Source of the DNA: Heterodontus francisci
Taxonomy: Eukaryota
NCBI RefSeq assembly: GCF_036365525.1
Contig: NW_027142279.1
Span: 496,001-560,000, forward strand
Reading direction: 5' to 3'
DNA length: 64,000 bases
The notes under the pieces were generated by a model. That model saw only the letters and a list, made by a program, of their open reading frames with translations. It was not told the DNA's origin and searched no databases. Below are positions 364 to 26,950 of the stretch, piece by piece. Within the stretch, counting starts at the first letter, position 1. Each line of letters starts with the position of its first letter. A program made the translations under genes and the position numbers.

Positions 364-1025
364 ATCACTAGCAGCACAGTAATACACCGCCCTGTCAGTC
401 TGATCCACCCTCAGTATTTTCAGGCTGCAGGTTTTAAGATCGGGTCTGGTGGCTTTAAATCTCTCCTTGAAACCCTCTTCAGGCCTGGAATCAGAGGTGC
501 CAATCGAGGTCACTATGAGCTGTAACCCTGCTCCGCTCTGCTGGCGATACCAGTACATGTAGCTCTCGCTGGTGTCATTCTGGAAACAGTGCATTTCCAC
601 CGTTTTCCCCTCTGCGACCGTCAGCCGGTTCCCCCACTGGGTAACGAGAGCGCTCCTGGACCGGGCTGTGGAGGAACATGAGAAACAGATCGGGTCAAAG
701 AGAACAGACACAATGAGGAGAGAGAGAGAGCTTTAATGGTAAACCTCCCGATGCACACTACAGTCGATCAGCCCGCTGACGCCCCAGCACAGGGGTCATG
801 TGCTGATTCCCAGAATCGCTGGGCACAACTGCAGTGGCGCTAAATAACGACACTTGTCCTCAACAGTAAAACCAAACCAGTAAATCTCTAACTGATTGGA
901 GCCCTTCGATATCAACAGGAATTGTGTCTCAAAGCTGATTAACTGGGGCCTGAATTTCCCTCCAAGTAGGAACAGTAACCTGGGAGCAGCAGAAACAGTA
1001 GATGGAGGTAAACAGTACACAGCAT
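364..1025 (-). CDS. TRBV: TCR beta-type V gene segment V1 (family A); leader exon 980-1025, V exon 364-665
   Basis: Leader MLCTVYLHLLFLLLP (46 nt, phase 1, GT donor). Acceptor ccacag at 666-671. V exon has C...YMYWYRQ...DRAVYYCAASD, directly followed by a 23-RSS. Assignment to beta rather than another locus is inferred from the motifs. Confidence 0.9.
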
Positions 1026-1129
1026 GATGCAGGAATGTGAACCCTTCTTTCAACCTTCCAGCTTGGTCCAGCTCTCACACACACTGCAGTCCTATTGGTG
1101 CACAGCCTGCTTTTGTGAAGCAATGCGGA

Positions 1130-1140
1130 AGTGACGTCAT
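1130..1140. promoter_or_regulatory. CRE / TCR V-beta decamer in the V1 promoter
   Basis: AGTGACGTCA at 1130-1139, about 105 bp upstream of the leader ATG. CCAAT (minus strand) at 1094-1098. Confidence 0.7.
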
Positions 1141-1459
1141 TGCAAGGGCAACCTTCCTTGTGTATCCAACAAAGCAGATGGTTCTTTCATATTTGTGGGT
1201 GTAAGAATTAGAATTACACAGGATTGACTTGCAAAGTCCCATCTATTGCAATGTTTGGGGATGTTCATAAAGATTTGAATGGTTGACATATATGTGTTTT
1301 ATAGAGAGATATCTCACCTGAATTGATTGTAGAATCTCCCGGGGGAGACCTCATTTCACCACTCGGTATCTCAGAAGACCAGTGAGCGGATAGTCAAACC
1401 AGGGGACCCTTTCTAAACTTTTCCCATCATAGGACAGCAGTGTTAGTAATGCAGAACCT

Positions 1460-1870
1460 GGAACTGTCCTCCGGAGGAGCAGAGAAGGTTAAGAGGGGAT
1501 TTGATAGAGGTTCAAAATCAGGAAGGGTTTAGATAGAGTAATTAAGGGGAAACTGTTTGCAGTGGCAGAAGGGGCGGTAAAGAGAGGACAAGAATTAAAG
1601 AATTCTTAATAGAGCAACAGGGAAGATTAGGAATTTTTTTCTTTCACTTGGTGAGTTATTCTGATCAGGAATGCTCTGCCTGAAAGGATGGTGGAAGCAG
1701 ATTCAACAGTCACTTTCAAAAGAGATTGGGATGTATATTTGAACAGGAAATATCTGCCACCCATTGAGGATAGAGTGTAGAGTGGGATGAAACAAGTAGA
1801 TCTTTCAAAATGTTGGCACAGGAACAACGGGCCGAATAGCCTCTACTGTTCTGTATGATTTTCAACTTCT
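1460..1870 (+). mobile_element. CR1-type LINE 3' fragment (degenerate)
   Basis: Remnants of RRLRGDLIEV.. and RV..WN.LP..VVEA coding, plus a 3' UTR ending gggccgaatagcctctactgttctgtatgatt. Confidence 0.75.
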
Positions 1871-2059
1871 CTGGAGATTATTTCCTCTGCTTTGGAAAGT
1901 ACTGAAATGAGTCTTTGGATATTGAACTGTCATTCAGGGAGCACTTAGAATCTATTGGAATATTCCACATTCTGCTGGGTTTGGAAAACTTCCCAAAGCT
2001 CCATCCAGGAACAGTTGTCTTTATGATCTCTCCTGGAAAGTATAAACAGGATTGGACCA

Positions 2060-3180
2060 AGTCAGCATTTGTTTGCGAAAGGGAAATCATGCTTAACAAA
2101 TCTACTGGAGTTGTTTGAGGACTTAACAAGTAGAATAGATAAGGGAGAACCAGTGGATCTGGTGTATTTGGATTTTCAGAAAGCTTTTAATAAGGTCCCA
2201 CATAAGAGGTAAGTGTGCAATATTACAGAACGTGGGATTGCGGTAATATACTGGCATGGAATGAAAATTGGTTGACAGACAGGAAACAGAGAGTAGGAAT
2301 AAGTGGGTCTTTTTTCCAGGAGGCAGGCAGTGACTAGTGGGGTATCACAGGGATCAGTGCTTGGGCCCCAGCTATTCACAATGCATATTAATGACTTGGG
2401 TGAGGGAACTAAATGTAACATTTCCCTGTCTGCAGATGACACAAAGCTGGGGGTAATGTGAGCTGTGAGCAGGATGCAAAAAGACTCCAATATGATTTGG
2501 ACAAGTTGGGTGAGTGGGAAAATGCATGGTAGATGCAGTATAATGCGGATAAATGTGAGGTTATCCACTTTGGTTGTAAAAACAGAAAGGCAATGAGTAA
2601 CTGAATGGTGATCGACTGGGAAAGGGGAGGTTCAGTGAGACCTGGGGATCCTTGTACCCCAGTTGCTGAAAGCAAGCATTCAGGTGCAGAAAGCAATTAG
2701 GAAGGCGAATGGTATGTTGGCCTTCGTTGCAGGAGGATTTGAGTACAGGAGCAAGGATTTCTTACTGCAGTTATACAGAGCCTTGGTGAGATCAGATCTG
2801 GAGTATTGTGTGCAGTTTTGGTCTCATTATCTGAGAAAGGATGTTCTTGCCATGGAGGGAGTACAAAGAAGATTTACTAGGCTGATTCCTGGGATGGCAG
2901 GATTGACGTATGAGGAGAGATTGGGCCGACTCGGCCTAAATTAACTAGAGTTTAAAAGAATGAGAGGGAATCTCGTAGAAACCTCTAACATTCTAACAGG
3001 ACTATACAGGCTAGAAGCAGGAAGGATGTTCCCGATGGCTGGAGAGTCCAGAACCAGGGGTCACAGTCTCAGAATACAGGGGATGTCATTTACAGCAGAG
3101 ATGAGGAGAAATGTCTACACTCAGAGGGTGGTGAACCTGTGGAATTCTCCTGCTCCTATTTTCTGTGTTTCCATGTTTCC
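2060..3180 (+). mobile_element. CR1-type LINE ORF2 (RT and C-terminal) fragment, frameshifted
   Basis: YLDFQKAF, QGSVLGP, ADDTK and LEYCVQFW motifs spread across frames (ORFs 2663-2944 and 2960-3202). Confidence 0.9.
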
Positions 3181-3227
3181 CTACTTGACTTTTCCTCTCT
3201 AACAGCTCACAGTATAAGAGGGTGGTA

Positions 3228-3266
3228 TGTTTTTGACCCAGCCCTGCACCTGTTTGAATCACTGTG
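3228..3266 (-). other. 23-RSS of V2
   Basis: CACAGTG (3260-3266), 23 nt, TCAAAAACA (3228-3236). Confidence 0.95.
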
Positions 3267-4436
3267 ATCACTAGCAGCACAGTAATACACCGCCCTGTCA
3301 GTCTGATCCACCCTCAGTATTTTCAGGCTGCAGGATTTAAAATCGGGTCTGGTGACTTTAAATCTCTCCTTGAAACCCTCTTCAGGCCTGGGATCAGATG
3401 TACCAATCGAGTTCACTATGAGCTGTAACCCTGCTCCGCTCTGCTGGCGATACCAGTACATGTAACTCTCGCCGGTGTCATTCTGGAAACAGTGCATTTC
3501 CGCAGTTGTCCCCTCTGCGACCATCAACCGGTTCCCCCACTGAGTAAGGAGGGCACTCCTGGACCGGGCTGTGGAGGAACATGAGAAACAGATCGGATCA
3601 AACATTTAAATAGGCACAGTAAGGACAGAGAGATAATTAATGTTTAAAATTGCGATGCACGCCACAGTCCATCAGTTCACTGAACAAACATACAGACCGG
3701 TCATCTCTGGAGGCTCAGTATCCGCTGGGCACACCTGCAGCTGCGCCCAAATCGCTGCACTTGGCCTCAGTGTCCATTGCTGGGGAGGACAAAAGTCAGC
3801 CAGCTTGCCCACTTTCCCCGCCGCCAACACTGGCTCTATTGCAATGTCCTTGCACCGTCCGCCAGTCCAGCGACACTGACTGGGTCAGCTCATTGACATT
3901 GTGGGCAATGTGCCCAAAATCAGCTGCCTAGGACTGGCCAACCTTCAGGTAATGGGCAGGGCGAACAAGGCAAGTTACATTTATTATTGAACAGAGTAAG
4001 AAACAATTAGGACCCAAAAGAAAGGCATTTACAGAGCCAGAGAATGATACAGCTCAGCAGGAAGCCCTTCGGCCAATCGCGACTGTGCTAGCTCTTTGAA
4101 GAACCTTTGCAAATATTCCAACTCCCCTGCTCTTTACCCAGATTCCTGCAAATATTGCCCATTCAGGAATTTATCCAGGTCTCTCTTTTTTTTTTAAAAG
4201 AAAAGGTTGCAATTGCATCCACCCGGCTTACAGACAATGTATTTCAGAGCAGAACAATTCACTGCTTCAAACAGTGAAGAATCCTCCAAGTGATCGAACT
4301 GTTTGAAGACTTTCTGCAACAACGAGAATTGATGTTGCCCAGAAGCAGATTAATCCGGGCCCGGATTTCCCTAAAAGTAGGAGCAGTAACCTGGGAGCAG
4401 CAGAAACAGTAGATGGAGGTAAACAGTACACAGCAT
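3267..4436 (-). CDS. TRBV: TCR beta-type V gene segment V2 (family A); leader exon 4391-4436, V exon 3267-3568
   Basis: Close paralog of V1 with the same 46-nt leader and 302-nt V exon ending YYCAASD. Intron enlarged to 822 bp, partly by a CR1 3' end at about 4030-4290. Confidence 0.9.
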
Positions 4437-5217
4437 GATGCAGGAATGTGAACCGTGCTCTCAGCCTTCCAGCTTCGTCCCGCTCTCACACACACTGTAG
4501 TCCTATTGGTCCTGCACATGTCTTTGTCATCCAGGGAGCAAGTGACGTTATTGCAAGGGCAACCAATAGAACGACCCTTGTGTATCCAAGCAAATCAGAT
4601 CCTCCTTTCCAATGTCTGAATGGAAGAATTAGAATGACACAGGACTGACTTGCAAAGTCCCATCTATTGCAGGGTTTGGGGATGTTCATAAAGATTGGAA
4701 CGCTTGACAAATCTGTGCTTTATAGAGGGATATCTGATGTGAAGTAACTGTAGAAACTCATGGGGGAGAACTCATTTCACCAATCAGCATTTCAGGTGGC
4801 CAGTGAGTGGATAGTTAAGCCAGGCCTCTCGATATAAACCTTCACCATCATAGGACAGCTGTATTAGTAATGTAGAAACTGGGACTGTCCTCCTTAGAGC
4901 AGAGAAGGTTAAGAGGAGATTTGATATAGAGGTTCAAAATCAGGAAGGGTTTTGATAGAGTAAATAAGGAGAATCTGTTTGCAATGGGAGAAGGGTCAGT
5001 AAACATGGGACACGGATTGAAGGTGATTCATCAAAGAACCAGAGAATGTCTGGAGGCTCGGTGTCCGCTGCACAGAAATGAACCTGCTCGAAATCAATAG
5101 CAAGACCAAATCTCTGAAGGATTTAACTGATTGGAACCTTTTCATATCAACAAGAGTTGCTGATGTTCAAAGCTGATTAACCGGGGCCCGAAATACCCTC
5201 CAAATAGGAGCAGTAAC

Positions 5218-5263
5218 CTGGGAGCAGCAGAAACAGCAGGTGGAGGTAAACAGTACACAGCAT
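5218..5263 (-). pseudogene. Orphan family-A leader exon with no V exon of its own
   Basis: Intact 46-nt leader (MLCTVYLHLLFLLLP + G|GTTACT) with diverged promoter copy. Only intron remnants and a CR1 fragment lie between it and the V2 promoter. Confidence 0.8.
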
Positions 5264-8200
5264 GATGTGGGAATTTGAAGCCTCCTATCTCAGCACCCTT
5301 GTCACACTCTGCAGACCTCTCTACCTCCCTCTGCGCCTCCTCTGGTGTTGAAGTGCAGAGATGCCGTCACTGCATGACCGTCCAATAGAACCTCTTGTTT
5401 CTCAATGCAAAGCACATTGTTCCTCCTTAGTTGTGAAGAATATTGAATGTACAGCAATGACTTGCAATGTGCAAGCAATTACAGAGGTTCGGGAATCTCC
5501 TGAAGGGTGCAATGTGTGGAGGTGTAGATTATTTGGAGAGTTTGGAAGAGTTAGGACTGTCTTCCTCTTTACAGAGAAGGTGAAGAGGAGATTCAATAGA
5601 GGTGTTCAGAGCCATGAGGGGTTTTGACAGAGTAAGTAGTGAGACACTGTTTGCAGTGACAGGAGGGTCGGTAACCAGAGGGGCACAGATTTGAGATCAT
5701 GGGCAAAAGAACCAGTGTCCCCTCGTCCTTGTACCATCAACTCATGGGAACAGATTTTCTTTGTCTACTTTACCTAAACCTCTCTTCATTTTGTACACTT
5801 CTATCAAATCTCCCCTCAATTTCCTTTGCTCCAAGGAGAACAAACCACAGATTCAACAACCTAACCATGTAGCTAAAATCTCTCATCCCTGGAACCATTC
5901 CAGTAAATCTCCTCTGCACCCTCTCAAGGACCCTACATCCGTCCTCAAGTGTGGTGACCAGAACTGGACTCAATACACAAGTTGGGGCCTAACAAGAGCC
6001 TTATAAATGTTCAGCTCAATCTCCCTGCTTTTGTACTTTACACCTCTATTTATAAATCTCGAGATCCCATAAGCTTTGTGAACCTCTCTCTCCATATGTC
6101 CTGCCACCTTCAAAGATATATGCACATTAACCCCCAGGTCCCTCTGTCCTTGAACACTCTTTAGGCCTGTGTCATTAAGTCTGTATTTCCTCTCTGTCTC
6201 CCTTCTGCCAAAATGTATCACCTGATAACAATGTAGTTCACTGTTAACTGCCTCTGAAATGGGCTAGCAAGTCATTCAGTTCAGGGCAATTCGGCATAGG
6301 TAATGAATGCTGACCTTGTCAGTAATGTGCACATCCCTGAATATGTGCTCCTTTATATAAAATGCCTCCTTCTCCATTTTTCTTTCACTGTTTTCTGACT
6401 TTGCTTCCCCTCTTCACTTCCTTCCGATCATCTGTTTCAGTATATCACAAGTGTTGCTCAAACCAGTCACTATGAACGAGCAGACTTGGGGAAATCCAAT
6501 TGTCTATTCTGTGTGGAATGGTTATGATTTGAATCTGTTTCAGAGTTAGTGGAATTGACTATTAGGTAGATTGGTCAAGTCACTGCTGTGTTGCTCGCTC
6601 AGTCTTTTCAGAAGCAAGTGGGACTCAGGCTGCGGTGGAGCTCCATCCCCACCTCGTGGCTGTAATGCGTAACTACAGGCACCTGTGATTTGCACAGTGC
6701 AATTGATAAAATAGGCATTCTGAAGACATGCTTTGAAATTGCTCAGTCTTCCCATTTTTTATCCATGGCTTCGGCTGCTGACGCTGGTGACATCGAATTA
6801 GGCCGGCGTGAATCTCCAGGGGACATGCGTTCGAATCCCACCAGGTCAGATGGTGGAATTTAAATTCAATCGATGAAAAAATACAATTATTTCATTGGAA
6901 AATCTGCAATTGAAAGCTGGTCTCAGTTAAGGCGCCCTGACACCCAGCTGGCTCACTCATGTCTTTCAGGGAAGGGAATCCGCCGTCCTTACCTGGTCTG
7001 GCCTGCATGTGACTCCAGACCCACAGAACACAAGAAATAGGAGCAGGTGTAGACCATATATCCCATCGAGCCTGCTCCGTCATTCAATACAATCATGGCT
7101 GATCTTGGGTTTCAATTTCACTTTCCTGCCTGCTCCCCATATCCCTTGATTTCCTGAGGGATCAAAAATACCATCTTTAAATTTATTCAATGAAGGACCA
7201 TCCACAACACTCTGGGATAGAGAATTCCAAAGTTTCACAACCCTTTGAGTGAAGTCATTTCTCCTCATCTCAGTCCGGAATGATTGATCCCTTATCCTGA
7301 GATTTCTCACTGCCTCTTTTCTTGAAAAGCCGTGTAACATTTGTCAGATTTCAATCCGATGGGACCATTCCTGAATCTAAGGAATTCTGGAAAATCATAA
7401 CCAGCGCCCCCACTCTCTCTGCAGCTATCTCTTTTAGAACTCTGGTATATAATCCATCTGTTCCAGGGGACTTGTCAGATTTTAATCCCTCAAGTTTCTC
7501 CAAAAGTTTTTCTCAATTGATATGAATATCCTTAATTTCCTCACTCTTTTTAGGCCCCAGATAACTGCCTATTTCTGGGATGGAACTTGTGTCTTCAACT
7601 GTGAAGACAGGCACAAAATATTAGTTCAATTCCCCTGCTATTTCCCCATTCCCCATGATGATTTTTCCTGTCTTTACCTCGAAAGAACCAACGTCAGCTT
7701 TAGCTACTCTCTTACTTTTTATGTAAAAGCTCCTACCATCTGTTTTTATATTGCTGGTTAGCTTATTCTCATATTTTATTCCCACATCCGATGAAAGAAC
7801 ATAAACAATGTCTTCACCCAGCCCTATCAGTATGACGTGCTATTTCCTGCTCCCTAATGTTTTTATCCAGCATTCATTTACATATATTTGGTTATACACA
7901 TCATTTCTTTCTGTGTGCAAGTGAATTCCACATTCTCACCACTCTGTATAAATTCATTTCTTGGAGTTATTAGTGGGTATGATGTATTCATGACCTTCCC
8001 TACAAGTGCAGGCATATTCTTTTCCTCTACCCTATCATATTCCTTCATAATCTTGAACAGGTCTATCAGGTCACCCTCAGCATTGTCCTCAGCACTTCAG
8101 GTGTCGTGTAAACAAAGTATATAGAGCTGAGAATTGTGCACAGTGCTCCAGGTGTGGTCTAACCGAGGTACGTGTTGAAGAGCCGTTCTATGAACCATTA

Positions 8201-8377
8201 TACAGGTGTGGGCACAGAGAGTGTGTGTTGCCTATCTGGAGGTTGTGGGGAGTTAGAACATGGGCGTTCTGCCAGTCGACCGGGCACTGAACAGATGCAG
8301 ATCCGCATCCGATCAGCCAGGGCTGCTCTTCACCGAATGCTGGGTTAAATGCACCCGTTTGAAGGGAGACGTGTGAG

Positions 8378-8416
8378 GGTTTTTGTCAAGGCGGACAATG
8401 ACTCTGAACCGTTGTG
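8378..8416 (-). other. 23-RSS of V3
   Basis: Variant heptamer CACAACG (8410-8416), 23 nt, perfect nonamer ACAAAAACC (8378-8386). Confidence 0.9.
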
Positions 8417-9150
8417 TCCCATCACCAGCTGCACAGAAATACACCGCCTCGTCCGTGGCGTTCACACTCTCGATCGTCAGAGTGGATTTCTTATTGTCCA
8501 GAGTCCTGGTAATAACAAACCCGCTCTTAATACCCTCTTCATACTGAGGTTCATTGCTTAGATAGTTAAACCCGATTAACAGGAATCCTCTGCTGGGGGA
8601 CTGACGATACCAGTACATGTAGCTGCGAACTGTTCCTTTCTGCAGACAGTTCATTTCCACGGGTCCTGGTTGTTTAAAAGCCAGTGACTGAGGCCATTGA
8701 TGTATCACCTCACCCCGGCAAACACCTAGAAAGAGAAATTAGAGGGAATGAACTAGTATCGATCGAGTTACAATTGAGACGATGGGCGTCGGTGTTGCAC
8801 CAAATTAACGACAGAAATTCGGTCTGTGTCCTAATTTCCTACAAGAACCTGGATCTTTACAACTGTAAGATAGAATTGTGGAATCCACAAGCTTGCAAGT
8901 GGGTGCAAACATTGAAGAGTTAACATCATATTAATAACACTTGTCTTCCCAAACTAGGGGACAGATGAATGAGTTCACTGTCTGATATGAAATAATCGAT
9001 TACTGATTTAACAAGTCACTGCCGCTCAGTTTTATTGAGATCATTAATCATCCCTTTCAGTTGATCAAATGTTGAAGAGTGATTGGGACAGAATTTTAAC
9101 CTACTCAGCGCCAGAATGGAAATAGCAAAGAGGATGAAACTGAAAGGCAT
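8417..9150 (-). CDS. TRBV: TCR beta-type V gene segment V3 (family B); leader 9105-9150, V exon 8417-8725
   Basis: Leader MPFSFILFAISILAL with A|GTAGGT donor. Acceptor ttctag. V exon SVCRG-EVIHQWP..MNC..YMYWYRQ..DEAVYFCAAGDG. Confidence 0.88.
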
Positions 9151-10182
9151 GTTTGCGGTGGATCTGAGAGACTTTCTGCTGGTTACTCTGGGTTTTAAGG
9201 GAGGGAGACAGATGAGGTGTTGGCAGAGCGGATCGTCATAAGAGGAAGCTACCTCAAGGCAATGATCCCCGCCCCTACCTTTAAGTTGTCCCCCATTCTT
9301 TCGTTTGCTTCCTTCCGCCCCTTTCCACTTTTTTCTTCTCTCCATTTTCCTCCTTCCACCCCACTTTCTACTCCTCTGCAAATATCTTCACTCTCTTCCC
9401 TTTGTGAGATTGCTTTCATGCCGAGGCGAGGGGAACTGTGTTGGAGAGGGTGGGTGAAAATACAAGGGGCGGTATAACGATAGCTGCTTTGGGTGACTCC
9501 AGAGGTAACGGTGCAGAACAGGGGATTATTAACATCCTTTTGCAAATTAAAAGCAGTAGTGGAGGAAGAGAAGGTGGATAGTTCGATGGCAGCGGAGGCG
9601 GCTCATATAACATCACTGTAAAGTGGAAATCTAACTGCATTTAGCATTGAAAGTGGAAAGATTGCAGAAGCAGAGGAATTGGCTCATTGATCAGCGGCGC
9701 CAAAGCCTGTGGTGGCGCGAAATACCGTGGAGCCATAGCGCCGACCAGTGGCAGCATTGTGCAACTGCAACAAGCTGTGTTTGTTACTTTCCCAGTGAAA
9801 CCCATTGCTCTTTCGGAGAGCCAGTGCAGACACGATGGGCCGAATGTCCTCCTCCTGCGCTGTAACAATTCAGCGATTATGAATGTCGATGACAACTGGC
9901 AATATTTTGATTTCAATTGTTAACCAGATGATCAATATTGTGTAATATTTGTGATGGATTCAAATGTTACAGGATGATATTCTAAGATACTAAGATGTAT
10001 CTATCCATTGGTCTGTTTATATCTCTGTCTTTCAGGCTACCGAGCCATCTATTTATCTCTAGAAGAGCTGGTTGGCAGCTGAAAGATACAGATGTAGACT
10101 CGCAAAGGCAACCAGACAAAGTCAGACCCCGAGACGGCGCGGAGATGAACAGAAGAGGATAGCTGTAGCAATGAGCCTGAGT

Positions 10183-10221
10183 GGTTATTGTCATAGTGTG
10201 GAAGGGGTTTGAAGCATTGTG
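10183..10221 (-). other. 23-RSS of V4
   Basis: CACAATG (10215-10221), 23 nt, ACAATAACC (10183-10191). Confidence 0.9.
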
Positions 10222-11026
10222 CTCCTTCAGTGGCGGCGCAGTAATACATCGCCCTATCTCCGGGGCCTGCAGTCTGAATTTTCAGAGTGCTCCTTTGAAT
10301 GTCAGCTCTCACCACCTCGAATCGCCTCTCGAACTCTTCCTGGAAAGTAGGCTTGCTCCCAGACACGTCCGTCACCAGAAGCTGGGGGCCTTGCCCGTGG
10401 TGCTGGCGGTACCAGAGCATGGTGATGTGCTCCGTGTCCTTCTGCTGACAGGTCAGTGTTGCGCTCTCCCCACGTCCCACAGTCAGTTCACTGGGTGTCT
10501 GGGACACTGAGGCACATCGACAACAATCTAGGGAAGTGGGAAGGGGGGAGAAAGGAAAGGGTCCAAGATTCAGTTAACGCAGCCACATCAGGAAAAGTCT
10601 GCAGTGCATCCCAGTGCATTTTCTGATCGAATATGAGCTCAGACAATCAGCTAACATGTGAAGGAGGCCGTTCATCCCAGCAGGCCTGTGCTAGCTCTTT
10701 GAAAAAGCTATGCAATGAGTTCATTCCCCAACTTTTCTCATCTCAATTTAGTTTTAAATGTAATTTATTCCAGTTTTCTAAGAATAAGAGTGAGGTCCTG
10801 TCTGGCAGATCATGCACCGGTTATAGAAGTAAATATCAGTGCAAAGTAACTCAATGTCTGTTTCTATATGAAGGGGACAATGACAACATCAATGAACGAT
10901 ATTACATACGGATCATTAAGTGTATTTCTTAAAGAAACTCAGGTTAAATGAAACAAGAATAGCATTCTGAAGTTACTTACGCGGCATCAGCAATGAAAAG
11001 GCCCAGAGCAGGAGTTTGAATTCCAT
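10222..11026 (-). CDS. TRBV: TCR beta-type V gene segment V4 (family C); leader 10981-11026, V exon 10222-10527
   Basis: Leader MEFKLLLWAFSLLMP with C|GTAAGT donor. Acceptor ccctag. V exon HCCRCASVSQTP..LTC..MLWYRQ..DRAMYYCAATEG. Confidence 0.88.
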
Positions 11027-11539
11027 CTTGGTGAGGTAACCAAGATGTGGTCTGGCAGCAGGAGAGGTGGGAAGAATGTGGCGCCTCTTGTTGAAGACAT
11101 GGGGGAAAAGGTGCAACATAGACGACTGGAAATGGCGTCACGGATATTGCAAGCCTGAAAGTAAGGGAGAGGAAGTGAGTTATCATGGCAGGGGATTGCT
11201 TCAACTGTTGAGCTTCCAGTCCACGGTCATCTGAGATTGAAGAGTTGTTAACTCGCTCAGATCCTCGTTCCACAAAACAGTTGTGGGGCATGAGTGGAAT
11301 TACTTCTATTTCATTCAATGGGTTGAGTAGGGTCCACGGTGTGATCAGGTATTAGTTGGTATAGGGGAGCCCAGAGCAGGAGTTGCTGAATAAAATAACG
11401 CCTACAAACGTGTGATCAGAGCCATCGATTTAAAATAAACCACAGTTATTCTGGGAGTCGATTGCAGATCTGTTAGCAAATTCTAAAATATTCTATTAGC
11501 AATAGCATATGTGAACAGAAATGCGAGGAGGGCAGAGTC

Positions 11540-12298
11540 AGAACAGCAGAGGAGGAGCACGTTCGGCCCTTCGAGTCCGTGTGAGCTCTCTGTACGGCAA
11601 TCCAATTAGTCCCATGCCCCAAGCAAGTTTATTTCTCTCCAAGTTTACATCCAATTACATTTTGAAATCATTCATTCTCTCTGCTTCCAGCATCCAGGTA
11701 GGCAGTGAGTTCCACATCATTACACCGCGCTGTGTAAACAAAATATGCCTCACATCGCCCCTGTATCTCTTCCCCAAAACCTTACATCTGTGTCCCCTAG
11801 TCCTTGTATCCATCAGCTCATGGGAACAGATTTTCTTTGTCTATTTTCCGCAACCTCTCTTCATTTTGTACACTTCTGTCAAATCTCCCCTCAATTTCCT
11901 TTGCTCCAAGGAGAACAACCCCAGCTTCACCAAACTAACCATGTCGCTAAAATCTCTCATCCCTGGAACCATCCCGGTAAATCTCCTTTACACCCTCTCA
12001 AGGACCCTACATCCTTCCTAAAGTGTGGTGACCCGAACCGGGCTCAATACTCAAGTTGGGGCCTAACCAAAACCTCATATATGTTGAGCATAACCACGCT
12101 GCTTTTGTACTTTATACCTCCATTCATGAATCCCAAGATCCCATAAGCTTCGTGAACCTCTCTCTCAATATGTCCTGCCACCTTCAAAGATCTATGCACA
12201 TTAACCCCCAGGTCCCTCTGTCCTTGAACACTCTTTAGGCCTATGTCATTAAGTCAGTAATTCCTCTCTGTCTCCCTTCTGCCAAAATGCATCACCTG
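11540..12298 (-). mobile_element. 5'-truncated CR1 LINE, duplicated with the 6.2-kb unit (also ~5716-6225 and ~17720-18480)
   Basis: Minus-strand translation gives LERVQRRFT.M.PG and VMHFGRR..Y.LN..RDLGV, typical of the CR1 ORF2 C-terminus. Confidence 0.85.
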
Positions 12299-12939
12299 AT
12301 AGCAATGTAGTTCACTGTTAACTGCCTCTGAAATGGGCTAGCAAGTCATTCAGTTAAGGGCAGTTCGGCATAGGCAATGAATGCTGACCTTGTCAGTGAT
12401 GTGCGCATCCCTGAATGTGTTTTTATATAAAATGCCTCCTTCTTCATTTTTCTTTCACTGTTTTCTCACTTTGCTTCCCCTCTTTACTTCCTTCAGATCA
12501 TCTGTTTTAGTATATCACAAGTGTTGCTCAAACCATTCACTATGAACGAGCAGACTTGGGGAAATCCAATTGTCTATTTTGTGTGGAATGGTTATGATTT
12601 TAATCTGTTCCAGAGTTAGTGGAATTGACTATTTGGTAGATTGGTCAAGTCACTGCTGCTTTGCTCACTCAGTCTTCACAGAAGCAAGTGGGACTCAGGC
12701 TGCGGTGGAGCTCCATCCCCACCTCGTGGCTGTCATGTGTAACTACAGGCACCTGTGGTTTGCACAGTGCAATTGATAAAATAGGCATTATGAAGACATG
12801 CTTTGAAATTGCTCCGTCTTCCCATTTTTTATCCATTGCTTCGGCTGCTGACGCTGGTGACATCGAATTAGATCGAATTTGCAGCACAGATTCAGGCTAT
12901 TCGGCCCGATGGGACCATGTTCCAGAAGAGCCTGGGGCA

Positions 12940-13207
12940 GATGGCGGTGTACTTGTCATGTCTCTGAGCTGGTAATCCAGAGGATGGGGATAATCTCCAG
13001 GGGACATGCGTTCGAATCCCACCAGGTCAGATGGCGGAATTTAAATTCAATTAATGAATAAATATAATTATTTCATCAGAAAATCTGCAATTGAAAGCTA
13101 GTCTCAGTTAAGGGGCCCTGTCACCCAGCTGGCTCACTCATGTCTTTTAGTGAAGGAAATCCGCCGTCCTTACCTGGTCTGGTCTACATGTGACTCCAGA
13201 CCCACAG
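12940..13207 (+). mobile_element. tRNA-derived shark SINE, 5' part (copies at ~6808-7027 and ~19120-19387)
   Basis: Pol III B-box-like GTTCGAATCC at about 13010 in a body matching a recalled elasmobranch SINE. Interrupted at 13207 by an antisense CR1 3' end. Confidence 0.65.
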
Positions 13208-14545
13208 AACACAAGAAATAGGAGCAGGTGTAGACCATATATCCCATCGAGCTTGCTCCATCATTCAATACAATCGTGGCTGATCTTGGGCTTCAATTCC
13301 ACTTTCCTGCCTACTCCCCATATCCCTTGATTTCCTGAGGGATCAGAAATCCCAGCCTTAAATGTATTCAATGAAGGAGCATCCACAACACTCTAGGGTA
13401 GAAAACTCCAAAGATTCACAACCCTTTGAGTGAAGCAATTTCTCCTCATCTCAGTTCGGAATGATTGATCCCCTGTCCTGAGATTTCTCATTACCTCCTT
13501 TTTTGAAAAGCCGTGTAACATTTGTCAGCGTTCAATCCGATGGCACCATTCCTGAATCTAAGGAATTCTGGAAAATCATAGCCAGTGCCTCCACTATCTC
13601 TGCAGCTATCTCTTTTAGAACCCTGGGATGTAATCCATCTGCTCCAGGGGACTTGTCGCATTTTAATCCCTCAAATTTCTCGTAGACTTTTTCTCAATTG
13701 ATATGAAAATCCTTAATTGCCTCACTCTTTTTAGCCCCCAGATAACTTCCTATTTCTGGTATGGAACTTGTGTCTTCTACTGTGAAGACAGACACAAAAT
13801 ATTTTTTCAATTCCCCTATTCCCCATGATAATTTCTCCTGTCTTTACCTCTAAGGGACCAACATCAACTTTAGCTACTCTCTTACTTTTTATGTAAAAGC
13901 TCCCACCATCTGTTTTTATATTGCTGGTTAGCTTATTCGCAAATTTTATTCCCACATCCAATGAAAGAAACTAAACCATGTCTTCATCCAGCCCTGTCAG
14001 TATGACGTGCTATTTCCTACTCCCTAATGTTTTTATCCAGCATCCATTTACATATATCTGTTTGTACACATCATTTATTTCTGTGTGCCAGCGAATTCCA
14101 CATTCTCACCACTGTATAAATTCATTTCTTGGAGTTATTAGTGAGTATGATGTATTCATGACCTTCCCGACAAGTGCAGGCATCTTCTCTACCTCTACCC
14201 TATTATATTCCTTCATAATCTTGAACACCTCTAACAGGTCACCCTCAGCATTGTCCTCAGCACTTCAGGTGTCGTCTAAACAAAGCCTGTAGAGATAAGA
14301 ATTATGCACAGAGCTCCAGGTGTGGTCTAACCGAGGTACGGGTTGAAGAGCCGTTCGATGAACCATTATACAGGTGTGGGCAGAGAAAGTGTGTGTTGTC
14401 TGTCTGGAGGTTGTGGGGAGTTAGAACATGGGCGTTCTGCCACTCGAACGGGCACTGAACAGGTGCAGATCCGCATCCGATCAGCCAGGGCTGCTCTTCA
14501 CCGAATGCTGGGTTAAATGCACCCGTTTGAAGGGAAACGTGTGAG

Positions 14546-14584
14546 GGTTTTTGTCAAGGCGGCCAATGACTCTGAACCGCTGTG
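14546..14584 (-). other. 23-RSS of V5
   Basis: CACAGCG (14578-14584), 23 nt, ACAAAAACC (14546-14554). Confidence 0.92.
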
Positions 14585-15318
14585 TCCCATCACCAGCTGC
14601 ACAGAAATACACCGCCTCGTCCGTGGCGTTCACACTCTCCATCGTCAGAGTGGATTTCTTATTGTTCAGAGTCCTGGTAATAACAAACCCGCTCTTAAAT
14701 CCATCTTCATACTGAGGTTCACTGCCGAGGTAAACAGAGCCCATTGAGAGGAATCCTCTGCCGGGGGACTGACGATACCAGGACATGTAGTCGCGAATCT
14801 TTCCGTTCTGCAGACAGTTCATTTCCACGGGTCCTGGTTGTTTAACAGCCAGTGACTGAGGCCATTGATGTATCACATCACACCGGCAAACACCTAGAAA
14901 GAGAAATTAGAGGGAATGAACTAGTATCGATGGAGTTACAATTGAGACGATGGGTGTCGGTGTTGCACCAAATTAACGACGGAAATTCGGTCTGTGTCCT
15001 AATTTCCTACAAGTACCTGGATCTTTACAAATGTAAAATAGAATCGTGGAATCCACAAGTTTGCAAGTGGGTGCAAACATTAAAGAGTTATCATCATATT
15101 AATAACACTTGTCTTCCCAAACTAGGGGACAGATGAATGAGTTCACTGTCTGATATGAAATAATCGATTACTGATTTCACAGGTCACCGCTGCTCAGTTT
15201 TATTGAGATCATTAATCATCCCTTTCAGTTGATCAAATGTAGAAGAGTGATTGGGACAGAATCTTAACCTACTCAGCGCCAGAAGGGAAATAGCAAAGAC
15301 GATGAAACTGAAAGGCAT
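14585..15318 (-). CDS. TRBV: TCR beta-type V gene segment V5 (family B); leader 15273-15318, V exon 14585-14893
   Basis: Duplicate of V3 with intact splice sites and an open frame to YFCAAGDG. Confidence 0.88.
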
Positions 15319-16365
15319 GTTTGCGGTGGATCTGAGAGACTTTCTGCTGGTTACTCTGGGTTTTAAGGGAGGGAGAGAGATGAGGTGTAGGCAGAGCGGA
15401 TCGTCATCAGAGGAAGTTATCTCAAGGCAATGATCCCCGCCCCTACCTTTAAGTTGTATCCCATTCTTTTGTTTGCTTCCTTCCGCCCCTTTCCACTTGT
15501 TTCTTCTCTCCATTTCCCTCCTTCCACCCCACCTTCTACTCTGCTGCCAATATCTTCACTCTCTTCCCTTTGTGAGCTTGCTTTCATGCTGAATCGAGGG
15601 AAATTTTGAAGGTAGCGAGGTGTTGGAGAGGGTAGGTGAAAAAAACAAGGGGCGGTGCAACGATAGCTGCTTTGAGTGACTCCAGAGCTTATGGCGCACA
15701 ACAGGGGATTATTAACATCCTTTTGCAAATTAAAATCAGTAGTGGAGGAAGAGAAGGTGGATAGTTCGATGGCAGCGGCGGCGGCTCATATAACATCACT
15801 GTAAAGTGGCAATCTAACTGCATTTAGCCTTTAAAGTGAAAAGATTGCAGAAGCAGAGGAATTGACTCATTGATCAGCGGCGCCAAAGCCTGTGGTGGCG
15901 CGAAATATAGTGGAGCCACTGCGCCGACCAGTGGCAGCATGGTGCAACTGCAACAAGCTGTGTTTGTTACTTTCCCAGTGAAACCCATTGCTCTTTCGGA
16001 GAGCCAGTGCAGACACGATGGGCCGAATGGCCTACTTCTGTGCTGTAACAATTCAGCGATTATGAATGTCGATGACAACTGGCAATATTTTGATTTCAAT
16101 TGTTAACCAGATGATCAATATTGTGTAATATTTGTGATGGATTCAAATGTTACAGGATGATATTCGAAGATACTAAGATGTATCTATCCATTGGTCTGTT
16201 TATAACTCTGTCTTTCAGGCTACCGAGCCATCTATTTATCTCTATAAGAGCTGGTTGGCAGCTGAAAGATACAGATGTAGACTCGCAAAGGCAACCAGAC
16301 AAAGTCAGACCCCGAGACGGCGAGGAGATGAACAGAAGAGGATAGCTGTAGCAATGAACCTGAGT

Positions 16366-16404
16366 GGTTATTGTCATAGTGTGGAAGGGGTTTGAAGCAT
16401 TGTG
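16366..16404 (-). other. 23-RSS of V6
   Basis: CACAATG (16398-16404), 23 nt, ACAATAACC (16366-16374). Confidence 0.9.
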
Positions 16405-17209
16405 CTCCTTCAGTGGCGGCGCAGTAATACATCGCCCTATCTCCGGGGCCTGCAGTCTGAATTTTCAGAGTGCTCCTTTGAATGTCAGCTCTCACCACCT
16501 CGAATCCAATCTCGAACCCTTCCTGGAAAGCCGGCTTGCTCCCAGACACGTCCGTCACCAGAAGCTCGGGGCCTTGCCTGTGGTGCTGGCGGTACCAGAG
16601 CATGGTGATGTGCTCCGTGTCCTTCTGCTGACAGGTCAGTGTTGCGCTCTCCCCATGTCCCAACGTCAGTTCACTGGGTGTCTGGGACACTGAGGCGCAT
16701 CGACAACAATCGAGGGCAGTGGGAAGGGGGGAGAAAGGAAAGGGTCCAAGATTCAGTTAACGCAGCCACATCAGGAAAAGTCTGCAGTGCATCCCAGTGC
16801 ATTTTCTGATCGAATATGAGCTCAGACAATCATCCAACATGTGAAGGAGGCCGTTCATCCCAGCAGGCCTGTGCTAGCTCTTTGAAAAAGCTATGCAATG
16901 AGTTCATTCCCCAACTTTTCTCATCTCAATTTAGTTTTAAATGTAATTTATTCCAGTTTTCTAAGAATAAGAGTGAGGTCCTGTCTGGCAGATCATGCAC
17001 CGGTTATAGAAGCAAATATCAGTGCAAAGTAACTCAATGTCTGTTTCTATATGAAGGGGACAATGACAACATCAATGAACGATATTACATACGGATCATT
17101 AAGTGTATTTCTTAAAGAAACTCAGGTTAAATGAAACAATAATAGCATTCTGAAGTTACTTACGCGGCATCAGCAATGAAAAGGCCCAGAGCAGGAGTTT
17201 GAATTCCAT
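16405..17209 (-). pseudogene. TRBV: TCR beta-type V segment V6 (family C), open frame but mutated splice acceptor; leader 17164-17209, V exon 16405-16710
   Basis: Duplicate of V4. The acceptor reads ...ccctCG| (16711-16712) instead of ...ccctAG|. Leader, frame and RSS are otherwise intact. Confidence 0.75.
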
Positions 17210-22502: not shown

Positions 22503-22596
22503 GCGACACAGAAACCCGCAGATAGTCAGAGAGACAGAAAGACACTGAGATAGACAGACAGGTTGAACACCCACAAGTGCTTTCCTCCCCCTTTAG

Positions 22597-22635
22597 AGTT
22601 TTTGCTGAACTCCGGCGCCTTTCTGAGTCACTGTG
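22597..22635 (-). other. 23-RSS of V7
   Basis: CACAGTG (22629-22635), 23 nt, GCAAAAACT (22597-22605). Confidence 0.92.
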
Positions 22636-22936
22636 CAGACTCCAGGCACAGTAATACACGGCTGATTGATTCACCAACAGGCTGGAGGACTCCAGGTAAA
22701 AATGGGTGTTGTCGGGTCTCCTGGCGGTGAAACCGTCCACCTCACCGGAGGCGGTGACCGTTCCGGCAGAGGTGGAATAGAAAAGGTTCTCGTGCTCACG
22801 GTCCGGATGCCACCGGTACCAGTAGACATCGGAGCCAGCATCTGCCTTTGTGTAAATACACTGGATACTGACTGGAGAGCCTGGGGAATAGGATATGGAA
22901 GCGGGAACCTGCTGGATCAACATGGCCCCCACATCT

Positions 22937-22968
<32 letters not shown>

Positions 22969-23591
22969 TAAACCCAGGGACAATGTTTAAATTGATATCG
23001 GCCACGAAGAGGGGAGAGGCACGATGGGCTGAATGACCTACTGTGTGCCCTAAATGTCCCGTGTTTCTATGTAAGAAGGGAGAGGTGGGAGATGGGGAGC
23101 TGCAAAGAGAGAGAGAGAGACATAGAGTGAAAAAGAGTGAGAGAAAAAGAGAGAAGCAGAGAGAGAGAGAGAGAGAGAGAATGAAAAAGAGCGAGAGAAA
23201 ATCAGAGAAGCAGAGAGAGAGAGAGAGAGAGAGAGAGGGAAGCACAGACAGAGGGAGAAAAACAGCAACATTCTAGACATGGGCAACAGACATGAAGGAG
23301 CTAATAGGACAGGGAGAGAGAGCAAGAGAGACAGAGAGAAAGGGAGAGTGGGAGGGACAGACATAGAGGAACAAATATCGTTAGACAGAGAGAAAGAGAG
23401 AGAGAGGAAGGAATACAAAACGAGAAAGAGAGCAGCTGAAATAACTATCACAGTGACGGTGCCTAGTAAGGGGGTAAACCCCCAATGGGGTCACACAGGC
23501 AAAGAGCAGTGAGGATGACTGGCATCTCTCAGTCGAGTTCCACCTTACCCCTTAACACCAGCAACACAACCCAGAGGTGAGACACAGTCAT
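22636..23591 (-). CDS. TRBV: TCR beta-type V gene segment V7 (family D, CAWS-type); leader 23549-23591, V exon 22636-22934
   Basis: Leader MTVSHLWVVLLVLR with G|GTAAGG donor. Acceptor ttacag after a (CT)n tract. V exon DVGAMLIQQVP..IQC..VYWYRW..NQSAVYYCAWSL. Confidence 0.87.
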
Positions 23592-25446
23592 CTCTGGAGG
23601 GAGACAGATCCATGTGTTCATTGTGTGAAATCACTGAGCTGTTTTACTGCAGAATATCTAAATGTTCTGAGTGACATTTACTGGCCCCTCCTCCCCAGTG
23701 TTTCATGTTCCCATTAGTGGGAGGGAAGGGTGAGGGGGTGGGTTGCAAATTCCTGATGGTTCATTGACTCCCACATGTTGACATGTTGACAGGTCATTTC
23801 CGGGGCTGAGCTAAGGAGGCCTCAGGGGAATCCGGGGGGCCTCTGGTCACTATTAAAGACCAGACATGATGAAGTCTAACTGCGTTTTTCTGTGTGGGTG
23901 AAATAGTTGAGAAGTGAAACATTTCAGAAGCAGCCAAGTTGACCTGTGGAGCTGCTGTGGGTGAAGCTCACTCTGTCTGAGCATGTTCTGGGCAGCGGCT
24001 GCAGTGGAGTAACACTGGCACCTAGTGGCTCCAGCTGCAACTGCAAGCACCGATTCTGCAGGCGTTTCAGTGTCAGACCCTGAACTGGTTTCAGTCATTA
24101 GTTATATTCTCCTACTCGACTCGTGTTGGCGCTTGTGGCATAGAACCAGATGCAAGTCAATGCACAGATCGGCGCCATTCGGCCCCACAGCTCTCTGCTT
24201 CACTCCAGCCTCAACCAGTCAAATACATTTTGAAGTGCAGTCACTGTTGTAATGCAGGGAAGGAGGCAGACAAGCTGCAAGATCAAGTGCAGGGTTATTC
24301 AGAAAGAACAGGGAGTGGGAGTAATTGGACAGGGAGGATGGAAACCAGGGATCAAAAATGTAAGGTAGTCCTTAATAAATCCAATTGGGAATTCAGGAGG
24401 AGGTTCTTTAACCCAGGGAGCGGTGAGAATGTGGAATTACAGACCAAATGGAATGGGTTGAGGTCGAATAGAGACGATGCAGTTAAGGGGGAGCTGAATA
24501 AATACATGAGTGAGAAAGGAATAGAAGAATCTGTTGATAGGGTAAGATGAAGAAAGATGGGAGGAGGTCGCTCTTTCGAGCTGCCAGGCCAGGATCGATG
24601 GGCTGAATGGCCTGGATTTGACCTGCATGACACGATGACCCAATAAGACCCGTCAGCCTGCTGCCTTGTTTCGGGGCCAAGACAGTTTTATTTCACCCCC
24701 TTCTGCTAAACGGGAGTTATAGGGTTAAGTTCTTCACCGCACTGAACTCCAGTCATTGTGAAAATTCTTCACTGTCACTGGGTCAAAATCCTGAAACTCC
24801 CTTCCTAACAGCACTGTGGGTTTACCTACCCTACATGACTGCAGTGGTTCAAGAAGGCAGCTCAGCACCACCTTCTCAATTAGACGATTAGGGATGGACA
24901 ATAAATGCTGACCACAACCAAAATCTCATGAATGAATTAAAAAAGAGAAAATAACCTCAGCAGGGGGGAAAAAACTCCAAAAAATACAACAACATGAAAA
25001 ACCAAATTGAACAACAACTGAAGCAGGGAAGGAAACAAGTACAACAAAAACCTCAGCAGGGAAAACACCAACAAACACAACAACGACCTCAAAAGGAAAA
25101 CAACGCCAACAAATTCAACAACAGATCAGCAGGAGATTCAAACACCAACAAATTCAACAACAGATCAGCAGAAGATTCAAGCACTAACAAATTCAACAAC
25201 CTCAGTCGGAGAAAAGCACCAGCAAATACAACAACAAATACAACAACAACTTCAGCAGCAGATCTATACCAACAAATGCAACAGCAACTACTGGCAGCCA
25301 ATGGTAGAGAGCGGGGCGTGGTAGGAAGGTAGGAAGGTGTTGGACAAACCTGAATCACTTGCTTGAGTCTTCATGTGGCTTCTCACAAGACTCAACTCTC
25401 TTCTTTCCACTGATTTCCCAATTGCAGGATAAGCTTCCAGTGGAAG

Positions 25447-25939
25447 ATGTATCTGTTACTGAGTCTCATGGTCTTATTTCAAAGTAAGAGATCTTTCTCA
25501 CCTCCACCCCACACCCCCATTGTTTGTGTTAACAGCTCTCTTTCTTATTTTCTTTCTCTCTATCTTTCTCTCCTTCCTTCATTCTTCACATCCCAGATTG
25601 TCCCTGTTCACTGACCTTCTTCTCTCCCGGTCTCTTCCTTCAGGCGCGATCTCAGCGAGGGTCCACCAGACTCCCACCGCCGTCTCCAGATTTCCTGGGG
25701 AGGGAGTGGGACTGGAGTGCCGTGTGGAGGGTGAGAGTAGCGGTTACATGTTCTGGTACAGACAGGACCTGGGGAAGGAGCTGCGGCTGATGTATTACTC
25801 CGCAGTTACACCAAGTGTGAACTCAGAGGGGACGGTGGAGGGTTTCACTGCCAAACGACCGACTGGTTCCCAGTTCAACCTGGAGTCCTCCAGCCTGCAG
25901 GAGAATCGCTCGGCGCTGTATTTCTGTGCCTGGAGTCTG
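25447..25939 (+). CDS. TRBV: TCR beta-type V gene segment V8 (family D, CAWS-type), inverted orientation; leader 25447-25483, V exon 25644-25939
   Basis: Leader MYLLLSLMVLFQ with A|GTAAGA donor. Acceptor cttcag ending 25643. V exon SAISARVHQTP..LEC..YMFWYRQDLGKELRLMYYS..NRSALYFCAWSL. Confidence 0.9.
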
Positions 25940-25978
25940 CACAGTGACTCAGAGAGATGGAGCAGTTCAACAAAAACA
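25940..25978 (+). other. 23-RSS of V8
   Basis: CACAGTG (25940-25946), 23 nt, ACAAAAACA (25970-25978). Confidence 0.95.
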
Positions 25979-26069
25979 CCAACAGAAACACCTGTTTCAG
26001 ATAAAAGCCTGCAGCTCTGTATCCTGTTGGGTTTATCTACTGCAGTGTGAACATGTCTTCGACATGAAG

Positions 26070-26950
26070 AAGACACAGAAAGATGTTCAAGGATGATATC
26101 AGAACTGAGAGGTTATAATGATCAGGAAAAGACTGAATAGACTGGGGCTCTTTTCTCCAGAAAAGAGAAGGCTGAGGAGTGACCTGATAGAGCTCTTTAA
26201 GATTATGAAACGGGTTTTGATCACATTATTGTGGAGAAGATTTTTTCCATTTGCAGGTGAGACCAGAAAAAGGGGGAGGGGTCATCAATATAAGACAGTC
26301 ACCAATAAATCCAATTTGGAATTCGGGAGAAACATCTTCACCCAGAGAGTGGGGAGAATGTGGAACTCATTACCACAGGCTGAGAGGAATAGGCAAGATG
26401 TATTTAAGCTTGGGGGGATGGGGAAGCTGCATCGGACATGAGGGAGAGAGGAACAGAAGGAGATGCGGCTGGGGGCGAGATGAAGAGGGCGTGGAACGAT
26501 GTTCGTGTGGACCAAAAAGGCCTACATGGACGTGTCTGGCCGAATGGTCTGTTTCTGTGCTGTAAATTCCCTGCAGCTGGAGCGAGGAGCAGGAACACCA
26601 ACACTGTGGGACTAGTCAGTGGAGCTGGGGAACTGACTCCTGGGTGAGGAGCAGCTTTTCTTTGTGATCCTCATCTAAACCTGTCACAATCTTGCACACC
26701 TCTATCAGGTCTCCACTCAATCTCATTTTCTCCAGGTTTTCCAACCTAACCTTGTAACTAAAATCCCCCATCCCTGGAACCATTCTGGTAAATCTCCTCT
26801 GCACCCTCTCAAGGAAACTCACCTCCTTCCTAAAGTGTGGTGACCAGAACTGGATGCAATTGTCCAGTTGTGGCCTAACTAGAGCTTTATAAAGATTCAG
26901 CATAACTTCCCATATTTTGTAGGCTCTGCCGCTATTTATGAAGCCCAAGA
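26070..26950. mobile_element. Two opposed CR1 3' fragments (+ ~26070-26570; - ~26650-26950)
   Basis: ORFs RLGLFS.EKRRLRSDLIE (+) and LYKALVRPQL..CIQFWSP (-). Confidence 0.8.

What the first reader, a model, noticed from the sequence alone, without database searches (positions are those of the whole stretch)
22597..25978. Head-to-head pair of CAWS-type V genes, one inverted, echoing the inverted mammalian TRBV30/Trbv31
Seen: V7 (-) and V8 (+) are divergent, with ATGs about 1.86 kb apart. Both end CAWSL, share similar RSS spacers (ACTCAGA...AGTTCA) and have an N-x-S sequon before the Y-x-C motif. They lie on the same side of the N gap, so their opposite polarity is not a scaffolding artefact. 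Known: the inverted V in mammalian TRB (human TRBV30, mouse Trbv31) ends CAWS, lies 3' of C and rearranges by inversion. Inference: here a CAWS V is inverted at the distal end, so its use would invert the entire V array and preserve the intervening Vs. The link between this lineage and inversion may be ancient, and the two genes might share bidirectional promoter elements.
Basis: partly seen in the sequence, partly recalled or inferred. Interest (0 to 1): 0.7.

Follow-up and report, generated by a model that had tools for sequence, protein, structure and literature searches.

The report
Back-to-back shark TRBV30-family V genes
Two intact horn-shark T-cell-receptor beta V genes that group on trees with mammalian TRBV30 sit back to back, but the pair is one of 15 near-identical copies in a locus repeated many times over, where about half of the V genes face backwards, and the backward gene here would likely be used by flipping about 35 kb of DNA.

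Summary
The pair is real: two intact CAWSL-ending TRBV genes, ATGs 1,856 bp apart, each with a 23-RSS. The constant gene is 100% identical to a Heterodontus francisci TCR cDNA. With the alignment cut at the second cysteine, V7 and V8 fall in one clade with horse and lizard TRBV30 (96/88). V8 is not a lone distal gene. The pair recurs 15 times on six contigs. The whole 1.1-Mb contig holds four intact D-J-D-J-C units, all on minus, and 151 V loci, 74 on plus. V8 would likely invert 35 kb (V1-V7 only); use was not shown. In 8 of 11 placeable copies V7, not V8, is the inverted partner, lying 3' of C like TRBV30. Those backward rows lead into J relics and a frameshifted second constant gene (C2) whose catshark relatives are intact. 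A shared promoter is unsupported. The scan noted inverted TRBV30-clan shark V genes and multiplied units before, on other DNA; the dead C2 unit is the added point.

The parts
23549..23591 (-). V7 leader exon (ATG at 23591)
   Evidence: GT donor, in-frame splice
22636..22934 (-). V7 V exon, family F2, TRBV30 clade, ends CAWSL, intact
22597..22635 (-). V7 23-RSS (heptamer consensus, nonamer 2 mismatches)
23592..25446 (.). Spacer between the two ATGs; most of it is dispersed repeat and a CAACAA minisatellite; the two proximal upstream regions are not homologous
25447..25483 (+). V8 leader exon
25644..25939 (+). V8 V exon, family F4, TRBV30 clade, ends CAWSL, intact; opposite to the unit's D-J-C
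25940..25978 (+). V8 23-RSS (heptamer consensus, nonamer 1 mismatch)
325..16690 (-). V1-V6 (families F1, F1, F7, F10, F7, F10; not TRBV30 clade), which a V8 inversion would flip; the unit's D, J and C lie left of the window (C2233: D 487120 and about 477960, 12 J found, C 462603)
22503..26100 (.). The duplicated V7/V8 cassette: 14 further complete copies at 90.7-99.5% identity

Best explanation
V7 and V8 are two old subfamilies of the TRBV30 clade that sit head to head in a 3.6-kb cassette copied 15 times in a multi-unit horn-shark TCR-beta locus; the cassette likely marks the seam between opposite-facing V rows, this copy was likely turned round by a block inversion, and V8 would likely join the D 35 kb to its left by RAG inversion. 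Shown: the repeat unit on C2233 is [plus V row, mostly CAW/CAC type] - J relics - pseudo-C2(+) >< C1(-) - J - D - J - D - [minus V row]. In the commoner layout V7 heads the backward row 3' of C1 and V8 faces the neighbouring unit; in the window the block is an inverted copy, so V7 faces its D-J-C and V8 faces away. Inferred: the RSS geometry (V8 23-RSS outside, D 12-RSS inside the cut interval) gives inversion, leaves V1-V7 flipped but kept, and leaves a chromosomal signal joint; synapsis would be by diffusion, as shown for mouse Trbv31 and an engineered inverted Trbv1 RSS. Each gene likely has its own promoter.
For: Cassette copies: 14 complete plus the window among 20 loci examined, picked from hits; 41 exact CAWSL+heptamer matches, 18 plus and 23 minus, 0 for the reversed control. 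Contig map: 4 intact C1 with D and J, all minus; 6 frameshifted C2, all plus; 151 V loci, 77 minus and 74 plus. C2233 521134-528262 is an inverted copy of 339694-332567 at 97.8%, and other plus rows have inverted copies in minus rows. Placement against the nearest C1 within 200 kb: V7 inverted 3' of C in 8, V8 inverted 5' in 3, unresolved 4, of 15. Tree: 40-row clade with V7, V8, Equus TRBV30, Podarcis TRBV30, 96/88; in the 274-domain FastTree all 34 CAW-ending domains fall in this clade, SH 0.953. Inversional use is shown in mouse (PMC10772921, passages) and inferred from repertoire in newt (PMC12698447, passages).
Against: No V8-D-J or V7-D-J junction was seen; the one run that covers these exons is only guessed to be RNA and its listed contigs read through the germline RSS. 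The direction of the block inversion rests on a majority count of related copies, not on a rooted history. The tree has 91 columns for 106 rows, its rows came from a search with V7 and V8 themselves, the group was drawn after the first tree, and no AU test was run. Copy numbers across contigs may include uncollapsed haplotypes.
Confidence: 0.75

Rival explanations
1. One reading: V8 is the special, conserved inverted CAWS gene at the distal end, the shark counterpart of TRBV30, with a promoter shared with V7.
For: V8 is in the TRBV30 clade, is intact, is opposite to its D-J-C, and the head-to-head cassette is kept in all 15 complete copies.
Against: V8 is the inverted partner in only 3 of 11 placeable copies; 55 of 74 plus-strand V loci on the contig are CAW-family, so V8 is one of many; shark CAW genes as a whole, not V8, are sister to the bony-vertebrate group (21 rows, 95/90); V7 and V8 upstream regions share nothing beyond 7-13 nt chance matches, and V7-family and V8-type upstream blocks also occur without the partner; one copy has lost most of V7 and kept V8 (L013).
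Confidence: 0.08
2. V8 in this copy is an intact but unused passenger of a recent segmental inversion; the V8 protein is supplied by copies that face a D-J-C and join by deletion.
For: On this contig two near-identical V8 copies (140k, 339k) are on minus with a minus D 95-112 kb to their left; the inversion is recent (97.8%), too recent for decay to show; no junction seen.
Against: Near-consensus RSS 35 kb from D; orientation-independent synapsis is shown in mouse Tcrb (PMC10772921); about half of all V loci here are inverted and 46 of them are intact with RSS.
Confidence: 0.3
3. The mixed polarity and the many units are assembly artefacts (misjoins, haplotype duplicates).
For: The locus is split over seven unplaced contigs of 0.3-2.0 Mb; some blocks are 99.4-99.8% identical.
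Against: Four units lie on one contig with a single 136-base N stretch, mostly 92-98% identical to each other; the closest copy (C1317) matches the window's V row at 99.4% but another unit's D-J-C at 99.7%, so it is a mosaic and no plain allele; bamboo shark and bichir tables show several units and both polarities (PMC10322711 supplement 16).
Confidence: 0.07

Closest known systems
Mammalian TRBV30 / mouse Trbv31 / opossum TRBV28 and the amniote 3'-inverted TRBV clade (PMC2275272, PMC11754216, PMC10772921; passages read)
   Same: Same V clade on the tree; CAWS end; 23-RSS; opposite polarity to D-J-C so that joining needs inversion.
   Different: One gene 3' of C in mammals. Here the clade is the largest V group (95 of 151 loci on one contig), occurs in both polarities, and V8 in this copy lies 5' of its nearest D-J-C; a pseudo-C2 with J relics lies between the backward row and C1.
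Bamboo shark (Chiloscyllium punctatum) and bichir TRB as tabulated by Giorgetti et al. 2023 (PMC10322711, supplement 16, part 1 of 5 read)
   Same: Several V-D-J-C units; rows of V genes opposite to and 3' of the nearest C; head-to-head V junctions (TRBV14-/TRBV15+ in the shark; TRBV21-/TRBV22+ in bichir).
   Different: 2 and 5 units there against 21 C1-type hits here; the table gives no sequences, so the clade of those inverted Vs was not checked; it lists no pseudo-C.
Multicluster horn-shark TCR homologs (Rast and Litman 1994, PMC44789; only the reference entry seen; content recalled, text not held)
   Same: Same species by constant-region identity; multicluster organisation as I recall it from the abstract.
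   Different: As recalled it rested on clones and blots and gave no polarity map, no second constant type and no TRBV30 link; not verifiable here.
Newt and tuatara TRB with several inverted V genes (PMC12698447, PMC11754216; passages)
   Same: Multiple inverted Vs near several D-J-C units, expressed in newt.
   Different: Far fewer units; no dead opposite-facing constant gene appears in the passages read.

Membership tests
TCR-beta V gene (TRBV) | Leader exon, V exon with both Cys and Trp, 23-RSS | tested here: met
TCR-beta V gene (TRBV) | Linked to D (12/23-RSS), J (12-RSS) and a TRBC | tested here: met
TCR-beta V gene (TRBV) | Found rearranged in V-D-J-C transcripts | tested here: inconclusive
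   no junction among listed contigs of one run guessed to be RNA
TRBV30 clade | Groups with TRBV30 on a tree that excludes the CAWS motif's A-W-S | tested here: met
   96/88 in IQ-TREE, 106 of 274 domains; SH 0.953 in FastTree, all 274; labels are database names; sampling biased by the query
TRBV30 clade | One-to-one orthology of V8 with TRBV30 | tested here: not met
   bony-vertebrate members form their own group (95/90); V7, V8 and other shark CAW genes are co-orthologs at best
3'-inverted TRBV (TRBV30 position) | Opposite polarity to D-J-C | tested here: met
   V8 plus, all four intact D-J-C minus; V7 in this copy is not inverted
3'-inverted TRBV (TRBV30 position) | Lies just 3' of the constant gene as the locus end | tested here: not met
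   V8 is 5' of its nearest D-J-C and 233 kb 3' of the next C1, with many Vs between; the position is met by V7 copies and their rows in 8 of 11 placeable cassettes
3'-inverted TRBV (TRBV30 position) | Rearranges by inversion with chromosomal signal joint | not testable with these tools
   needs thymocyte DNA reads
Bidirectional promoter pair | Shared elements driving both genes | tested here: inconclusive
   no homology of upstream regions, partners separable in paralogs; no activity data

The most novel reading that the evidence does not exclude
The backward position of TRBV30 is the relic of a second TCR-beta unit. The ancestral locus held two units tail to tail, V(CAW)n-(D)-J-C2 facing C1-J-D-V(others)n; loss of the C2 end stranded the CAW genes as inverted Vs 3' of C1. 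Catsharks keep C2 intact with a J, the horn shark keeps it as pseudo-C2 with J relics and no D found in some 19 copies, and mammals keep one V. The horn shark then multiplied the whole module about 20 times over some 8.5 Mb, so that a large share of its TCR-beta joins would go by inversion.
Probability: 0.25. Interest if true: 0.75.

Novelty: new variant of a known kind. Interest (0 to 1): 0.5.

Why it matters
It puts the TRBV30 clade at the base of jawed vertebrates and shows it as the dominant, often backward-facing V group in a shark. That bears on a question left open in PMC11754216 (why and how inverted TRBV genes arose) and in PMC10772921 (why Tcrb supports orientation-independent synapsis). 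The dead opposite-facing C2 unit gives a concrete, checkable origin for the inversion. The V7/V8 pair itself is an ordinary seam between duplicated blocks.

Tried and rejected
The search for homologous proteins with V8, longer proteins: 0 of 72 candidates passed. Pfam C1-set search of the genome: the 150 scored of 626 candidates held no hit on the TRB contigs. Sequencing runs: no RNA holder listed; 3 runs of one sample, RNA only guessed. X1 covers V7 and V8 exons and the V7 leader, X2 and X3 hardly; no V-D-J joint or D/J-like loose end among the rows shown, tables cut; not used as evidence on expression. PDB search: mouse and human TCR-beta chains score alike (Mel5 beta 60.5 bits among many), uninformative for clade. 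Idea that the CAACAA minisatellites flanking V8 inverted V8 alone: rejected, the inverted block includes V7 and V8 together and the same flanks occur in other copies. Idea that CAW Vs belong only to C2: not borne out; a bamboo-shark model joins a CAW V to J and a C1-type C, and two of three catshark C2 models carry a CASS V. Whether C2 predates bony vertebrates: unresolved; only one tetrapod C was in the tree and the tool warned of long branches (two teleost rows dropped because the motif was not found). Relaxed scans for a plus-strand D before five pseudo-C2 found only V ends. Fisher p of 4.5e-7 for lineage by strand is not used as a probability, since copies are related. Literature searches returned no paper that maps horn-shark TRB polarity or a second shark TRBC type; subscription papers, Rast and Litman 1994 and Criscitiello 2010 were not readable, and parts 2-5 of supplement 16 and the other supplements were not read, so absence from print is not shown.

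Full report
Observation. V7 (minus) and V8 (plus) each have a leader exon, a GT..AG intron, an open V exon ending CAWSL and a 23-RSS with a consensus heptamer; the ATGs are 1,856 bp apart. The sequon and spacer likeness are real but general to the family: 45 and 40 of 48 intact CAW-family genes on the contig carry them. The proteins are 41% identical, so the pair is no recent inverted duplication of one gene. V7 groups with a cloudy-catshark V (100/99) and V8 with a bamboo-shark V (94/80), so the two subfamilies are old. The N stretch left of V7 is no misjoin: a copy on C1317 matches both flanks in register at 99.6-99.7%.

What locus. The window is G000:C2233:496001-560000. The intact constant exon nearest the window is 100% identical to a Heterodontus francisci TCR cDNA protein, and 52-61% to TCR-beta models of other sharks. 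I fetched the contig up to base 1,112,000 of 1,112,283 and mapped it. It holds four intact units C1-J-D-J-D, all on minus (C1 at 20k, 202k, 463k, 755k; V-proximal D at 45k, 227k, 487k, 780k; second D near 36k, 218k, 478k, 771k), six frameshifted constant genes of a second type, all on plus, and 151 V loci, 77 minus and 74 plus, of which 46 and 46 are intact with RSS. Genome-wide a constant-domain query scored 150 of 433 candidates and gave 21 full-length C1-class hits and 17 truncated or stop-bearing hits on seven contigs; two more pseudo-C2 came from the contig map. I read 6 of the 21 C1 directly. Fourteen of 21 C1 have a pseudo-C2 tail to tail within 16-21 kb. These numbers are lower bounds from the search and may be inflated by haplotypes. 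Earlier scan notes pointed me to the multiplied units (e1-9975573); I tested that here.

The pair is a repeated cassette. An exact CAWSL-plus-heptamer pattern occurs 41 times (18 plus, 23 minus; control 0). Among 20 fetched loci, 14 more complete V7/V8 cassettes align at 90.7-99.5%; one copy has lost most of V7. Against the nearest C1 within 200 kb in the direction V7 points, V7 is inverted and 3' of C in 8 copies, V8 is inverted and 5' in 3 (the window among them), and 4 are unresolved. The window's block 521-528k is an inverted copy of 340-333k at 97.8%, and whole plus rows recur inverted inside minus rows. So the seam between two opposite rows was copied and turned several times. After V8 come 48 kb without V, then 18 more minus V loci, so V8 is not the end of the array.

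Kinship with TRBV30. A profile of V7 and V8 found 1,769 representatives; the best 150 were returned. I cut 274 V domains from these, from later hits and from contig families at the second cysteine, so that A-W-S could not drive the tree. FastTree put all 34 CAW-ending domains in a clade of 40 (SH 0.953). IQ-TREE on 106 of the 274 rows (47 in or next to the clade, all named and horn-shark rows, 30 random others; 168 left out) gave the same 40-row clade at 96/88. It holds V7, V8, rays, other sharks, bichir relative, sturgeon, gar, tarpon, salamanders, a caecilian, a turtle, lizard TRBV30 and horse TRBV30 (names). The bony-vertebrate members form their own group (95/90), so the shark genes are co-orthologs, not one-to-one. 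Limits: 91 columns, query-biased sampling, group drawn after the first tree, no mixture model, no AU test. The CAC-ending family F3 is a separate group of open position.

Polarity and lineage. CAW families make up 55 of 74 plus loci and 40 of 77 minus loci; with F3, 71 of 74 and 49 of 77; only 3 plus loci are of other families. The plus rows lie 3' of C1, the TRBV30 position (PMC2275272, PMC11754216, passages). Copies are related, so this is one or a few events, not 74.

How V8 would work. Its RSS is 34.8 kb from the nearest D and 44 kb from the second, both on minus. Cutting at both inverts the interval, joins V8 to D, keeps V1-V7 flipped and leaves a signal joint on the chromosome (inference from RSS geometry and the 12/23 rule, established knowledge). 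Joining to the next unit's D, 258 kb to the right, would also be inversional. The nearest plus-strand J relic and pseudo-C2 lie 213-217 kb to the right, with no D found, so they offer no productive partner. Mouse Trbv31 and an inverted Trbv1 RSS recombine by inversion through diffusion (PMC10772921, passages); newt inverted V clusters appear in repertoires (PMC12698447). For V8 itself use is not shown, and forward-facing copies could supply the same protein.

Promoter. The 400 bp upstream of each ATG share only 7-13 nt matches at E 2.8 or worse; a V7-family copy keeps 1.2 kb of V7's upstream without V8's, and V8-type upstream blocks occur apart from V7. The middle of the spacer is dispersed repeat. 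A shared promoter is not excluded but has no support.

The second constant gene. Each plus row ends in one or two J-like relics (damaged FGXG motif or splice phase, weak RSS) 2-8 kb before the pseudo-C2. Pseudo-C2 is 57% identical to catshark constant models that are intact and preceded by a J, and 36% separates C1 from C2. On a tree it joins the catshark C2 (100/99), apart from 11 C1-type rows from nine shark species. All C2 copies read are frameshifted (6 on C2233, 3 elsewhere). The backward rows thus look like the V array of a dead second unit. One catshark model has a CAWS V ahead of J-C2, but two have CASS Vs, and a bamboo-shark model links a CAW V to C1; these are automatic gene models. 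Whether the same event explains TRBV30 in mammals is inference, hence 0.25.

What is known. Several units and mixed V polarity are tabulated for bamboo shark and bichir (PMC10322711 supplement 16, part 1). Multicluster horn-shark TCR genes were, as I recall, reported in 1994 (text not held). The amniote 3'-inverted V clade is published (PMC11754216). The scan has noted TRBV30-clan rows and a backward V in this and other shark genomes.

Verdict. Observation confirmed; interpretation partly supported. A new variant of a known kind, interest 0.5, carried mainly by the locus architecture and the dead C2 unit rather than by the pair.

Noticed in passing
C2233 175848-184100, 438040-444704, 735232-739015, 1099561-1106499 (loci L037/L038, L049/L050, L083, L119/L120): J relics and a frameshifted second-type TRBC (C2) on plus, tail to tail with the intact C1; C2 is intact in catshark gene models.
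   Followed up: partly
window 20113-21002, 24950-25300, 27093-27549, 28986-29425: A 36-38-bp CAACAA-rich minisatellite in both orientations around V7/V8 (inverted pairs 70-88% alike); a possible substrate for block inversions.
   Followed up: partly
C2233, all four intact units: Each unit has two D-J blocks before one C (D-J3-D-J9-12-C).
   Followed up: partly
L013 (C1317 343001-353000); window 22729-23486: A cassette copy with most of V7 deleted; the same joint appears in run X1.
   Followed up: no
C1317 1-67000 (L121-L126, L010): Mosaic unit: V row 99.4% identical to the window's, D-J-C 99.7% identical to a different unit of C2233; suggests recent unequal exchange between units.
   Followed up: partly
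L002-L011 V7-family copies: Eight V7-family cassette copies read WYP in place of WYR and share a block of linked changes; function unchecked.
   Followed up: no
C2233 family F3, e.g. 365549-372494: A CAC-ending (CACSI) V family, 25 loci on this contig, with relatives in Mustelus and Pristiophorus; carries an extra cysteine at the CDR3 start.
   Followed up: no
window 23670-23679: AGTGACATTT about 80 bp upstream of the V7 ATG resembles the mammalian V-beta promoter decamer (motif recalled, not tested).
   Followed up: no
window 32626-33428 and 38999-48600: Five 161-bp tandem copies at 98% identity, and about 10 kb of GA-rich satellite in the V-free stretch right of V8.
   Followed up: no
C2233 780207-790922 (L087, L088): An 11-kb tandem array with a period near 44 bp directly upstream of the fourth unit's D.
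   Followed up: no
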